Below are positions 1 through 3,000 of a stretch of 64,000 nucleotides of DNA, one piece after another; the first letter of the stretch is position 1; every line of letters starts with the position of its first letter. Source of the stretch: Escherichia coli. Lineage in GTDB: Bacteria; Pseudomonadota; Gammaproteobacteria; Enterobacterales; Enterobacteriaceae. The position numbers were made by a program. The stretch lies in assembly GCF_003018115.1 (NCBI RefSeq), contig NZ_CP027458.1, one strand, 5' to 3'.

Positions 1-3000
1 GGGTTTTCACCTGGTCTTCCACCACCAGGGTCAGCGTCAGAATGAACGGGCAGGAGATGGACAGTTCCGGGTTCAGCAGGTTGCTGTAGTTGTCGGCCAT
101 GTTCCACAGGAAGGCGATTTCCGGGTTACGGGCCAGATGGAAATTCAGGATGCGGGCCGTGCTGTTCCTGCCGTTCTCACGCAGTCCCAGCGTCAGGTAA
201 TCTGCCCGGACCTTCAGGTCAAAACTGTCCTCCACGCACTGATAATTCAAATCAGAATACGGGTCCAGCTGACGTCTTTTCGGGTACAGGGAGTCCGGGT
301 TATGGTTAATCATCTCCCCGACAATATCGATGAAAGCCTGTGCATCCACCGTCTGCGTGGTGATATATGCTCCCTGCAGAGACGCCCGGATGATTTTCAC
401 CAGGTTTTCCATTTCCAGAATGTCGGCCCGGCTTTTTTTCTTCGAGGGAGAACAGTACGAGATAAACACCCGGTAATGGCGCAGGGTCAGAGGCAGGTTC
501 AACCCTTCCGGCAGCGGAAACAGTGTTTCTGCGGCTTTCATGTAATAGGCCCGGGTAATGGCGTTAAACCGTTCTGCCTGTTCACCTGACCAGGAGAACT
601 CACGCAGCCCGTACTCAATCCGCTCGCCAACCAGCTGGCTGGACATCAGATGGATACACAGCGGAATACCGCGCGGCAGTTTGGTACGCAGCATGTGGTC
701 GAGCGCCTCCACAATGGACTCATTCGCCCCATTGATGGGAATGGCTTCCAGCATAAAGCCCATCGTGGTGTCATTCATGAACAGACCGGATTCCTGGTTG
801 TAATCACGGTACGGCAGCAGACGGCTGAACTGCGGGAAGCTCATTTCGCCCAGAACTTCATTGGCCTTTGCGGATTCGTCAGGCAGTTTCAGTGCTGTGA
901 CGAGGGAGTTAACCGCCTGAGTGACGGCCTCAAGTGGGTTATTACTCATATGAGTATTCCTTAGTACGTTTAAAAAAGGAAAATATCAGTCTGTGGCGTG
1001 GATATATCACGCAGTGCCATTCTTAAAACCACAGCACAAATAAGAGATGGAGGCTTTTAACAGGAAACCAGGATTAATGTTCCTTTGCTGAATCAGCATC
1101 ACTTAATGCCTGAAGTTGTTTTTCGCGTATCTTATTGAGCTCGTTTTCTCTTACCCGTCGCGCCTCTGCCATTTCGTTTCTTTTTCTGCATTCTGATGCG
1201 ATTTTATTTGCCTTACCAAGTGTTAAAGGTTCAGACTGATAATTAAGTGTCTCCTGAAATGCTTCTGCTGCACAGGGAGTTTCCTGTAAAATCTCTGTCA
1301 CTTGTTCTGGTGTTGCAGGTTGTTGCGCAAGGTAAACGATGTAAACAGGAATACATACAATCATAGCCATAACGCCAACAAATATAAAAGCCAGAACAGA
1401 TTTTAAATATATCGACTTCATTTCATTTTCCTTCGAAGCAGTAAGCACTCATAGCCCACCACCATTCAGTGTTTCCATCACGTTATTCAAAGGTTCATTA
1501 GTTTTAACTTCAATACACCCCCCTGTATTTCCGAGGCCCCTGCCTCCGTGCGCTTCGATTCTCCGAAGGACCTGCACGCATACGTCAATATTTAGCACAG
1601 GTGTAATATTCCAGATACCACCACCGCCAACATTTTTCATCAGCACAAGAAAAATAAAGGTATGTATTCTTTATTACCCCCAGTAAAATATTAATCACTG
1701 AATATTCTTTCAGTTAACTTATGAGGTTATAAAACACAGCAGATTTTCATTCGGATTTATTCTCTTCAGTAAACTTCCGGATGGTATCCTGTTCATGCTG
1801 ACGGGTGGCAGACTCCTGCATTGCATCCACTTTCTCCTGCCAGAGACGCCGGATATCCTTTTCATCCCGACCAGTCAGTTTTTTCCCGGACAGCAGACGG
1901 TTAAGCAGTTCCTGTCTCGCATCCGGTACGTCTTCAGTCAGACGCATAAGCTGAAGCAGGCTCTGACGGCTGAGGACCATGAGTGATTCCGGCAGGAGGG
2001 TGAAGAAGTAAATAAAAAAGCATACCGCACCACAGCAAGTAAGGACCGCAAACAGGATTTTCAGATATATACCATCAACGCCGAACGCAGCAATAATACA
2101 GGGAATCCATGCAATACACGCACAATACGCCAGGATGTTATCTATTCGGTTATGTCTGCGATATATCTGTTAATGTTCATCCAGAATAGAATCTATTTTT
2201 TCAGTTTCTGATTTATGCATAGTGTTTCCTCTACCTTTCCTGCCAGAGACGCCGGATATCCTGTTCATCCCGACCAGTCAGTTTTTTACCGGACAACAAA
2301 CGGTTAAGCAGTTCCTGTCTCACATCTGGTATGTCTTCAGTCAGACGCATAAGCCGGAGTAATTCCTGACGACTGAGTACCATGCGTGATTCCTCCGGTA
2401 CGCTGTAATAATTAAAAATACGACTGAATACCCCACAACAGCAGGCAACGGACAGGCACAGGGATTTCAGATACAGGCCAGAAACACAGAATGTGGCAAC
2501 ACCACAAAGAATAGCTATAACTAAAAAAACCTTACCCAGTGCCATACACAAAGAACCCTGTTTTCTGAATATCCGCTCATGTTCATCCAGAATAAAATCT
2601 ATTTTTTCAGTTTCTGATTTATGCATAGTGTTTTCTCTGTTTTTCCTGATACGCCTGACATTCAACGCACAACGTCACACCGGGAAATATTTTCCTCCTG
2701 GCTTCCGGAATAGGATTTCCGCATGCCTCACAGAGATAAACAGGAATACCATGAGCATTTATTTTCTGGCGTATCCGGTTTATTCCTGTCATGGTCAGTT
2801 GTTCTGTCACTGAATATGCTTCATCGACTTCATCACTCACGGAATATTCCTCCCGACATGTTCTGACACGCTACCGCCCATCCCTTTTCACGCACAGGGC
2901 ACTCGTTTTACTGGCAGATTTTGAATACAGAAAGCCCGCCGGCATTGCCGGCTGATATACAACTTCAGGGCCAGTTAATTAATACGTGGTTTTCCCCACG

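What the first reader, a model, noticed from the sequence alone, without database searches (positions are those of the whole stretch)
1074..2665. Cargo genes and a tandem ~440-bp duplication between traR and traC
In the F prototype traR is followed directly by traC. Here four extra ORFs sit between them: a cysteine-rich membrane protein, a truncated duplicate of its C-terminal half, a glycine-rich 65-aa ORF and a 116-aa membrane protein, the last two translationally coupled. The duplication suggests recent rearrangement. Small membrane proteins inside a transfer operon could act in exclusion, as toxin/immunity, or as pilus accessories.
Basis: seen in the sequence. Interest (0 to 1): 0.55.

Follow-up and report, generated by a model that had tools for sequence, protein, structure and literature searches.

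The report
R100-type accessory genes between traR and traC
The extra genes between traR and traC are the long-known but uncharacterised accessory block of R100-type F-like plasmids, including an old tandem pair of two different alleles of one small membrane-protein gene, and they are ordinary rather than a recent rearrangement.

Summary
On the minus strand, traR (2840-2619) is followed by four small ORFs before traC (starts at 949), and there is a tandem repeat with a period of 403-406 bp, not about 440.

The interpretation needs correcting. The layout is colinear at about 95% with the classic plasmid R100. About 300 PLSDB plasmids carry it, and roughly 850 more carry a single-copy version. 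Records call the genes yfiA-C, OrfH or YafA, all "hypothetical".

The second copy is not a C-terminal fragment. It is a full-length paralogue with one in-frame TAA at codon 17 (2172-2170). The two copies are different alleles: near-identical flanks around a roughly 250-bp membrane-hairpin core with only 52-57% nucleotide identity. They were joined by a crossover in a shared CAGGA between the gene's 3' part and the traR 3' end.

The block is ancestral, not inserted cargo, because F itself keeps a 34-codon stub of the gene after traR. Other lineages show deletions, frameshifts and IS1. In this window copy 2 carries the nonsense codon and the 72-aa ORF has ATA for ATG.

No Pfam, NCBIfam, PHROG, PADLOC or fold match exists. 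An IncI1 gene annotated yafA, taken to be the homologue, was dispensable in a published transposon screen. Function stays unknown; a non-essential membrane accessory role is most likely.

The parts
2867..2878 (-). ops element GGCGGTAGCGTG (RfaH recruitment site) in the traV-traR spacer, just upstream of the block
   Evidence: This is the only match to GGCGGTAGNNTG in the 64-kb window (0.06 expected by chance). There is a weak JUMPstart hit (21.3 bits, below the gathering score) at 2867-2913. That RfaH activates the F tra operon is taken from PMC7593976.
2619..2840 (-). traR (73 aa, DksA/TraR zinc-finger protein). Its last roughly 30 nt form the start of repeat unit 1.
   Evidence: PGAP annotation of the 100%-identical plasmid NZ_CP073590. 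Pairwise dN/dS is 0.04-0.29.
2231..2626 (-). Copy 1 of the yfiA/YafA-family gene: allele A, 131 aa. It has a two-pass membrane hairpin and a cytoplasmic helical domain, and lacks the C-terminal tail. Its ATG overlaps the traR stop (ATGCATAA). It ends at a TAG where R100 has CAG.
   Evidence: The exact protein is on more than 1000 contigs (P0277). AlphaFold2 model pLDDT is 80.
2238..2242 (-). Crossover pentamer CAGGA, the duplication junction. Upstream of it is the gene's C-domain; downstream the sequence switches to the traR 3' end.
   Evidence: Single-copy loci read CTCTGGCAGGA|gaaagtgg. Duplicated loci read CTCTGGCAGGA|aa(c/g)g(c/t)agaggaaacactATGcataa, which equals the traR 3' end TATCAGGA|AAggcagaggaaacactATGcataa. 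In R100, copy 1 ends with TraR's own C-terminal residues QRKHYA.
1747..2220 (-). Copy 2 of the same family: allele B, 157 codons, full length. It is inactivated by an in-frame TAA at codon 17 (2172-2170). PGAP calls a 139-aa product from ATA at 2166.
   Evidence: The copy is intact (CAA) in R100, L020, L021 and L022. The 139-aa call is on 353 contigs (P0291).
1449..1667 (-). orfH (UniProt O32536 'OrfH'): 72-aa Gly-rich protein with two conserved Cys. The family ATG is ATA here (1667-1665). Possible internal starts are GTG at 1646 and ATG at 1640.
   Evidence: dN/dS is 0.18-0.39. A length of 72-73 aa is kept in Klebsiella variants at 57-74% identity.
1074..1421 (-). yfiC: 115 aa, with an N-terminal membrane helix and then a helical domain with two invariant Cys. 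An alternative GTG start lies at 1448.
   Evidence: (UniRef name 'YfiC protein'). AlphaFold2 model pLDDT is 84.
1..949 (-). 5' part of traC (F-type VirB4 ATPase), which runs off the window start

Best explanation
**What it is (shown).** The interval is the R100-type accessory block of the F-like transfer operon. It holds:
- two tandem paralogues of a small two-pass inner-membrane protein specific to conjugative plasmids (the yfiA/YafA family);
- the 72-aa OrfH;
- the single-pass membrane protein YfiC.

**How the tandem pair arose (shown).** An illegitimate crossover occurred in a shared CAGGA. It joined the 3' part of an A-type gene to the traR 3' end of a plasmid carrying a B-type gene. Copy 1 therefore lost its tail, and copy 2 brought its own copy of the traR-overlap start.

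**Age and dispensability (shown).**
- The arrangement is old, since it is present in R100.
- The block is ancestral to F-like plasmids and dispensable. F keeps only a 34-codon stub.
- Other lineages carry internal deletions, frameshifts or IS1.
- In this window's lineage copy 2 has just acquired a nonsense codon and orfH has lost its ATG.

**How it works (inferred).**
- The genes are co-transcribed with the pilus-assembly genes from the tra promoter, under RfaH antitermination from the ops site just upstream of traR.
- Translation of the first copy is coupled to traR through the ATGCATAA overlap.
- The products are non-essential inner-membrane accessory factors of the donor's type IV secretion/pilus apparatus or envelope. 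This is comparable in status to TraP, TrbD and TrbG, which are not required for transfer in the laboratory.

I put the identity and evolutionary account at about 0.9, and the 'non-essential T4SS/envelope accessory' function at about 0.4.
For: **Identity**
- The window is 100% identical to NZ_CP073590 and other plasmids, and about 95% colinear with R100.
- Names given by sources are yfiA, OrfH and YfiC. PMC5052281 lists 'yfiABC' in the R100 transfer backbone.

**Junction and alleles**
- Junction sequence.
- A and B alleles occur singly in other plasmids.
- Mosaic pattern: flanks are 96-100% identical around a sharply bounded core of 42-72% identity. Core dS is 0.58-1.06 against 0-0.33 in the flanks. 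C-domain dN/dS is about 0.2.

**Ancestral and dispensable**
- The F stub reads MHKSVAEHSDLIPDEHEWIFRKQKSLYMRREMAR*.
- L008 has a deletion, L007 a broken yfiC, L005 and L006 a frameshifted orfH, and L006 an IS1.
- In the IncI1 plasmid pESBL the gene annotated 'Protein YafA' scored 0.96 'not required' and 0.00 'required for transfer' in TnSeq (PMC4288162). Its homology to this family is inferred, not checked. The IncI1 yafA family matches at about 35% identity, E=1e-13.

**Operon membership**
- All genes are on the same strand with overlapping or short spacers.
- Promoter-like and terminator-like sites are no more frequent than in shuffles.
- A single ops site lies at 2878-2867.
- GC is 40-43%, like the other non-essential tra genes, against 55-60% in traB and traC.

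**Still real genes**
- The C-domain is conserved, with RLLSGKxLTGRD nearly invariant down to 24-36% identity.
- orfH dN/dS is 0.18-0.39.
- YfiC has invariant Cys.

**Order of events:** L021 (98.9% relative) has copy 2 intact but already shares the TAG in copy 1 and the ATA in orfH.
Against: - Family members also occur outside tra operons. In IncI1 they sit next to a FinO/ProQ-like gene, and in L024 next to a coupling-protein gene. The family's function therefore need not be tied to F-pilus assembly.
- The cassette-like hypervariable core suggests a specificity function rather than a generic accessory one.
- Co-transcription and translational coupling are inferred from layout only.
- The variant counts (about 300, 850 and 2300) are estimates from identity bands and sampled rows, not exact tallies.
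Confidence: 0.6

Rival explanations
1. The yfiA/YafA family is a polymorphic specificity determinant, for example a second exclusion, immunity or plasmid-competition function. The membrane hairpin would be the recognition module and would be swapped as a cassette. Carrying A plus B in tandem, as R100 does, would give two specificities. YfiC may be a partner.
For: - The roughly 250-bp core is sharply bounded, with 42-72% identity between flanks of 96-100%.
- Core dS is 3-5 times the flank dS, and core dN/dS is about 0.7-1.1.
- There are at least four core types plus mosaics within one narrow host range.
- Tandem carriage of two different types is maintained in about 300 plasmids.
- YfiC pairwise dN/dS is 0.5-1.2.
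Against: - The variable part is buried in the inner membrane, and only a roughly 8-residue loop is exposed.
- No toxin or ligand partner is evident.
- The IncI1 gene annotated yafA was neutral for transfer and maintenance in TnSeq (PMC4288162).
- The gene is repeatedly lost (F stub, L008).
- Copy 2 is knocked out in this lineage without visible compensation.
- Fast divergence of a mere membrane anchor, plus recombination in the conserved flanks, could give the same pattern.
Confidence: 0.2
2. The first gene product is a membrane-anchored partner of TraR, or more generally of plasmid RNA-polymerase or RNA regulators. Its conserved cytoplasmic domain would bind or sequester the regulator encoded just upstream.
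For: - In F-like plasmids the gene always directly follows traR, with an ATG/stop overlap. This holds even in distant members (L013, L015, L023) and in the F stub.
- In other plasmids it follows a NusG paralogue (L014) or a FinO/ProQ-like gene (L016).
- TraR-YfiA fusion ORFs exist (P0041, P0042).
Against: - F's TraR works without it (established knowledge).
- The L024/L025 context has no regulator upstream.
- The fusions are rare singletons and may be frameshift artefacts.
- No fold or motif suggests a known anti-factor.
Confidence: 0.1
3. orfH and yfiC form a small secreted-peptide (microcin-like) and immunity pair, or the small membrane proteins are toxins of a toxin/antitoxin system.
For: A Gly-rich 72-aa ORF with two conserved Cys is followed closely by a membrane protein.
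Against: - Losses are reciprocal. orfH is frameshifted while yfiC is intact (L005, L006). yfiC is destroyed while orfH is intact (L007).
- There is no double-glycine leader conservation.
- No exporter, C39 peptidase or antitoxin lies nearby.
- There is no Pfam, NCBIfam or PADLOC hit.
- No internal promoter or antisense signal exceeds chance.
Confidence: 0.03
4. The block is non-functional remnant DNA that is merely decaying.
For: - Losses are frequent: the F stub, deletions, IS1, frameshifts, and the nonsense and start-codon mutations here.
- GC is low.
Against: - There is purifying selection on the C-domain (dN/dS about 0.2) and on orfH (0.18-0.39).
- Family members at 24-36% identity keep the same architecture and a nearly invariant motif in IncF, IncI1 and other conjugative plasmids.
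- Intact copies are present in thousands of plasmids.
Confidence: 0.07

Closest known systems
R100 (NC_002134 / AP000342) traR-traC interval: yfiA/yfiB/yfiC, also recorded as OrfG/H/I-type ORFs (UniProt O32534 'Conjugative transfer protein', O32536 'OrfH')
   Same: - Gene order is the same: traR, copy 1, copy 2, 72-aa ORF, 115-aa ORF, traC.
- The duplication junction is the same.
- Nucleotide identity is about 95% over 2 kb.
   Different: - R100 copy 1 is 137 aa and ends in TraR's QRKHYA. Here a CAG-to-TAG change gives 131 aa.
- R100 copy 2 is intact, whereas here codon 17 is TAA.
- R100 orfH starts with ATG, whereas here it is ATA.
IncI1 'yafA' (e.g. LC567098; 'Protein YafA' of pESBL-EA11)
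   Same: - It has the same architecture and the conserved RLLSGKxLTGRD cytoplasmic motif.
- It matches at about 35% identity, E=1e-13.
- It is specific to conjugative plasmids.
   Different: - It sits next to a FinO/ProQ-like gene near the replication region, not in the transfer operon.
- TnSeq found the pESBL gene of that name not required for transfer or maintenance (PMC4288162).
Non-essential small tra-operon products of F (TraP, TrbD, TrbG, TrbE, TrbA, ArtA, TrbJ, TrbF, TrbH)
   Same: - They are small, often membrane-associated products inside the same operon.
- They have low GC.
- Their presence varies among F-like plasmids.
- They are dispensable for laboratory transfer. This is general knowledge plus the presence/absence profiles in PMC5102898.
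   Different: There is no sequence or fold similarity to any of them, since NCBIfam models for these proteins did not hit.
Entry/surface exclusion genes traS and traT
   Same: TraS is a small, highly variable inner-membrane protein that defines specificity groups among F-like plasmids. The hypervariable hairpin here recalls that.
   Different: - The location differs: traS and traT lie between traG and traD.
- There is no homology.
- No exclusion phenotype has been tested.
- The conserved cytoplasmic domain has no counterpart in TraS.

Membership tests
yfiA/YafA family (R100 copy 1/copy 2, IncI1 yafA) | N-terminal motif MHKSxxEKIDxILDEH, two hydrophobic helices, and a C-terminal helical domain with RLLSGKxLTGRD | tested here: met
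   Both copies align over their full length with family alignments A1 and A2. Copy 1 is the exact protein P0277, and copy 2 equals P0055 or L021 apart from the stop.
yfiA/YafA family (R100 copy 1/copy 2, IncI1 yafA) | In F-like plasmids, a position directly after traR with the ATG overlapping the traR stop (ATGCATAA) | tested here: met
   Window 2626-2619. The same is seen in R100, L003-L007, L015, L023 and the F stub.
yfiA/YafA family (R100 copy 1/copy 2, IncI1 yafA) | An intact open reading frame of about 157 aa | tested here: not met
   Copy 1 is cut at residue 131 by the junction and a TAG. Copy 2 has TAA at codon 17. Both are family members by descent, but neither is a full-length intact gene in this window.
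YfiC | About 115-120 aa, an N-terminal membrane helix, and a conserved domain with two invariant Cys and a KIREKQ motif | tested here: met
   99% identical to P0121. The UniRef name is 'YfiC protein'. See also alignment A3 and the hydropathy scan.
OrfH (O32536) | 72-73 aa, MHTFIFLVL..GGG..TPMPNTDVC..GECIEVKT..METLNGG | tested here: met
   The sequence matches, but the family ATG is ATA here, so expression is uncertain.
Entry exclusion (TraS/TraT) | Homology to TraS or TraT, a location between traG and traD, and an exclusion phenotype | tested here: not met
   There is no NCBIfam or Pfam hit, and the location is different. The phenotype cannot be tested with these tools.
Class II microcin plus immunity | A double-glycine leader, a dedicated ABC exporter with a C39 peptidase, and an immunity gene that is never lost alone | tested here: not met
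   No conserved leader, no exporter in the interval, and reciprocal losses of orfH and yfiC.
Known anti-phage defence systems | A match to a PADLOC model | tested here: not met
   The only hit was a chance-level one, E=0.023 at 11.9 bits.
F-type T4SS accessory component | Physical or genetic interaction with the Tra apparatus | not testable with these tools
   Only operon membership is shown.

The most novel reading that the evidence does not exclude
The yfiA/YafA proteins form a previously unrecognised polymorphic recognition system of enterobacterial conjugative plasmids. A conserved cytoplasmic signalling or binding domain is attached to a cassette-swapped membrane hairpin that sets specificity, for example in plasmid-plasmid competition or exclusion. 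R100-type plasmids would carry two specificities in tandem.
Probability: 0.12. Interest if true: 0.65.

Novelty: already known. Interest (0 to 1): 0.25.

Why it matters
As a finding in this window it matters little. The sequence is 100% identical to public plasmids, and the layout has been in the R100 record for decades.

The wider picture is a modest lead. About 16% of complete E. coli genomes (885 of 5426) and a few thousand IncF and IncI1 plasmids carry a small membrane-protein family. It has no known function, a strongly conserved cytoplasmic domain and a cassette-like hypervariable membrane hairpin. The family is also repeatedly lost.

This bears on annotating transfer operons and on comparing the transfer behaviour of F-type and R100-type plasmids. 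It also corrects the common view of F as the 'complete' prototype, since here F is the deletion derivative.

Tried and rejected
**Family and domain searches**
- Pfam on the 158-aa, 115-aa and 72-aa proteins gave nothing below E=0.09.
- NCBIfam, PADLOC and PHROGs gave only chance-level hits.

**Structure**
- AlphaFold2 models of the yfiA-family protein (pLDDT 80) and YfiC (pLDDT 84) are all-helical.

**RNA and signals**
- Rfam over 1-4000 gave only a sub-threshold JUMPstart hit.
- The promoter/terminator scan found no more than shuffles give.
- Tandem Repeats Finder missed the repeat.

**Literature**
- Searches for yfiA/traR/traC, orfG/H/I and 'between traR and traC' found no functional study.
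- 'Five shades of F' (PMC5102898) does not treat the interval.

**Other leads**
- P0056 was suspected to be the IncI1 YafA, but it is an F-like B allele with a longer start call.
- The VirB-type context of P0339 was suspected to be IncX. It has no close match in PLSDB.
- A double-glycine leader reading of OrfH was rejected because the relevant positions are not conserved in Klebsiella variants.
- The 153-aa reverse-strand gene called in L018, L019 and L007 is the antisense of orfH and is judged spurious.
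Full report
**1. What is there**

The first 6 kb of the window carry, on the minus strand, the pilus-assembly part of an F-like transfer operon:
- traB (6045-4615), then traP, trbD and trbG;
- traV (3490-2975);
- traR (2840-2619);
- four small ORFs;
- traC, whose ATG is at 949 and which runs off the window start.

The stretch 900-2900 is 100% identical to several E. coli IncF plasmids such as NZ_CP073590. PGAP annotates that record as traR, four hypothetical proteins, then traC.

**2. The ORFs, corrected**

- **ORF 1.** It starts at the ATG at 2626, which overlaps the traR stop (ATGCATAA), and ends at 2231. It is 131 aa with 7 Cys and two hydrophobic helices.
- **ORF 2.** Ten bases further on, a second ATG (2220) opens a reading frame of 157 codons that runs to 1747. 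It is interrupted only by a TAA at codon 17 (2172-2170). PGAP aa from an ATA at 2166.
- **ORF 3.** This is the Gly-rich ORF. Its family start lies at 1667, where this window has ATA instead of ATG. Internal GTG (1646) and ATG (1640) codons exist.
- **ORF 4.** It is 115 aa from the ATG at 1421, preceded by AAGGA. It is 124 aa from the GTG at 1448, which abuts the upstream stop. It has one N-terminal membrane helix.

**3. The repeat**

The repeat finder gives 2569-2648 matching 2163-2242 (90%) and 2238-2418 matching 1835-2015 (84%). The spacing is 403-406 nt. Tandem Repeats Finder did not report it, because the middle of the units is too diverged.

**4. It is the R100 layout**

R100 (NC_002134) has traR, a 137-aa gene, an intact 157-aa gene, a 72-aa gene, a 115-aa gene and traC. 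It is colinear with the window at about 95% identity.

A paper on an R100-derived plasmid lists 'yfiABC' among the R100 transfer-backbone genes (PMC5052281). Names attached by databases are:
- yfiA;
- 'YfiC protein';
- 'OrfH', O32536;
- 'Conjugative transfer protein', O32534;
- YafA or YfhA for close relatives of copy 1.

I could not establish which of the ORFs the original R100 record called yfiB.

**5. Variation in the population**

Of 3556 PLSDB plasmids matching the 2-kb query, my estimates are as follows:
- about 300 match colinearly at 95% or more, which is the duplicated layout;
- roughly 850 more hold a single-copy version spanning about 1.6 kb;
- about 2300 have traR next to traC, spanning 488 bp.

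These figures come from identity bands and sampled rows, not from exact tallies. Among complete E. coli genomes, 885 of 5426 have a match, and 1214 of 1217 places are on plasmids.

**6. Two alleles, not a fresh duplication**

Single-copy plasmids carry either an A-type gene (158 aa; L003-L006, L010) or a B-type gene (157 aa; L007). The window's copy 1 is A and copy 2 is B.

| Segment | Amino-acid identity | Nucleotide identity | dN | dS |
|---|---|---|---|---|
| First 16 codons | 88-94% | 92-98% | – | – |
| Codons 17-81 (membrane hairpin) | 30-33% | 52-57% | 0.66-0.70 | 0.58-1.06 |
| Codons 82-128 (C-domain) | 89-96% | – | dN/dS about 0.2 | – |

A 50-nt sliding comparison of an A locus and a B locus shows 96-100% identity everywhere, except in a sharply bounded block of about 250 nt at 42-72%.

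**7. The junction**

Single-copy genes read CTCTGGCAGGA|gaaagtgg. Duplicated loci read CTCTGGCAGGA|aa(c/g)g(c/t)agaggaaacactATGcataa. That is the 3' end of traR (TATCAGGA|AAggcagaggaaacactATGcataa). In R100 copy 1 therefore ends in TraR's own last residues, QRKHYA.

The simplest reading is an illegitimate crossover in the shared CAGGA between an A-carrying and a B-carrying plasmid. This is inference. An old intramolecular duplication followed by replacement of one core would give the same result.

**8. Lineage-specific decay in this window**

Relative to R100 the window has three changes:
- CAG to TAG in the junction tail of copy 1;
- ATG to ATA at orfH;
- CAA to TAA at codon 17 of copy 2.

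NZ_CP015239 (98.9% identical) shares the first two but has copy 2 intact. The nonsense codon is therefore the newest event. It is not a sequencing error, because the resulting 139-aa call is on 353 contigs.

**9. Ancestral and dispensable**

- The F plasmid itself (NC_002483) has, right after traR and with the same ATGCATAA overlap, a 34-codon stub: MHKSVAEHSDLIPDEHEWIFRKQKSLYMRREMAR*. It matches the family's 5' end at 83% over 98 nt. The F layout is therefore a deletion derivative, not the state before an insertion.
- CP099175 has a deletion joining the 5' part of a B gene to the 3' part of yfiC.
- NZ_CP095539 has a 134-bp frame-breaking deletion in yfiC, with orfH intact.
- NZ_CP073947 and CP060110 have orfH frameshifted with yfiC intact. 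CP060110 also has IS1 in the spacer.
- One plasmid has an IS3-family element in the interval.

The reciprocal losses argue against an addictive toxin/immunity pair.

**10. Still genes**

- The yfiA-type C-domain is under purifying selection.
- In an exhaustive profile search of 1.84 billion representative proteins, only 95 clusters matched. Members at 24-36% identity keep the same plan and a nearly invariant RLLSGKxLTGRD.
- orfH has pairwise dN/dS of 0.18-0.39, with most changes at third positions. It keeps 72-73 aa in Klebsiella variants at 57-74% identity.
- YfiC shows pairwise dN/dS of 0.5-1.2. However, its C-terminal two thirds are well conserved, with two invariant Cys.

The dN/dS values rest on a handful of loci and are rough.

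**11. Wider family and contexts**

- Distant members sit after traR in other F-type operons (L013, L015, L023).
- One follows a NusG paralogue and precedes VirB1-VirB4 in a P-type system (L014).
- One lies near a coupling-protein gene (L024 and L025).
- In IncI1-type plasmids the gene is annotated yafA and sits downstream of a FinO/ProQ-like gene (L016).
- tblastn links IncI1 yafA to the F-like genes at about 35% identity, E=1e-13.

In the pESBL-EA11 transposon screen, 'Protein YafA' scored 0.96 not required, 0.04 essential and 0.00 required for transfer (PMC4288162). I did not verify the pESBL sequence itself. The assignment rests on its name, and on its position downstream of a 603-nt ORF the same size as the FinO/ProQ-like gene in L016. 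Its length (169 aa) differs from the L016 homologue (158 aa).

The genes downstream of the family member differ between contexts, so YfiC and OrfH are not obligate partners.

**12. No functional homology**

- Pfam, NCBIfam, PHROGs and PADLOC gave nothing.
- Both AlphaFold2 models are helical and confident (pLDDT 80 and 84).
- Charge distribution suggests both ends of the yfiA-type protein are cytoplasmic. This is inference from the positive-inside rule.

**13. Expression context**

- All genes share the operon strand.
- No promoter-like or terminator-like excess was found.
- GC is 40-43%, like traR and trbD/trbG, against 55-60% in traB and traC.
- The only ops consensus in the 64-kb window, GGCGGTAGCGTG, lies at 2878-2867 between traV and traR.
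- That RfaH activates the F tra operon is from the literature (PMC7593976).

Co-transcription and coupling to traR are inferred.

**14. Verdict**

The 'recent rearrangement' and 'cargo' readings are not supported. The block is a known, widely distributed, repeatedly lost accessory part of F-like transfer operons with unknown function.

My best guess is a non-essential inner-membrane accessory role in the donor, at about 0.4. The cassette-like hairpin leaves room for a specificity function, at about 0.2 in its general form and 0.12 in the strong form given as the novel case.

Noticed in passing
L026 (F plasmid NC_002483) 3575-3679: F itself keeps a 34-codon stub of the yfiA-family gene, whose ATG overlaps the traR stop. 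'traR directly followed by traC' is therefore a deletion state, not the ancestral one.
   Followed up: yes
window 2867-2878 (-): The only ops (RfaH recruitment) consensus in the 64-kb window, GGCGGTAGCGTG, lies in the traV-traR spacer. That is deep inside the tra operon rather than in its leader. It sits just before the low-GC accessory genes.
   Followed up: partly
L014 2811-3272; L016 5001-5477; L024 2501-2971: Homologues of the first gene occur in other conjugative contexts. One follows a NusG paralogue at the head of a VirB-type operon. One follows a FinO/ProQ-like gene in ColIa/IncI1-type plasmids (yafA). One lies near a coupling-protein gene.
   Followed up: partly
L008 (CP099175) about 575-975; L007 (NZ_CP095539) 1347-1587; L006 (CP060110) 1191-1888; L005 and L006 orfH: The interval shows independent decay events. 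One is a deletion fusing the 5' part of the B allele to the 3' part of yfiC. Another is a 134-bp frame-breaking deletion in yfiC. There is also an IS1 insertion, and two different frameshifts in orfH.
   Followed up: yes
protein P0197: In one plasmid the TraV lipoprotein signal (MKQISLFIPLLGTLLLSGCAGTSTEFECNATTSDT) is fused in frame to the C-terminal domain of YfiC. This implies a deletion of the traV 3' part, traR, yfiA and orfH, and such a plasmid should be transfer-defective.
   Followed up: no
proteins P0041, P0042: Rare TraR-YfiA fusion ORFs (222-229 aa, carrying the TraR zinc-finger Pfam domain). They were probably created by a frameshift near the traR stop/ATG overlap.
   Followed up: no
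L022 (NZ_CP055200) 781-1263: Copy 2 carries an in-frame 9-nt duplication (WIPWIP) inside its first membrane helix, giving 160 aa.
   Followed up: no
L023 2974-3351; L015 5507-5644: In plasmids with a C-type first gene, the downstream partner is an unrelated 125-aa multi-pass membrane protein, truncated to 45 aa in L015, instead of OrfH and YfiC.
   Followed up: partly
cluster 3: The 90%-identity protein cluster holding the 72-aa OrfH has a 120-aa YfiC-type representative (P0161), although the two share no sequence. This is apparently an artefact of the clustering and not biology.
   Followed up: no
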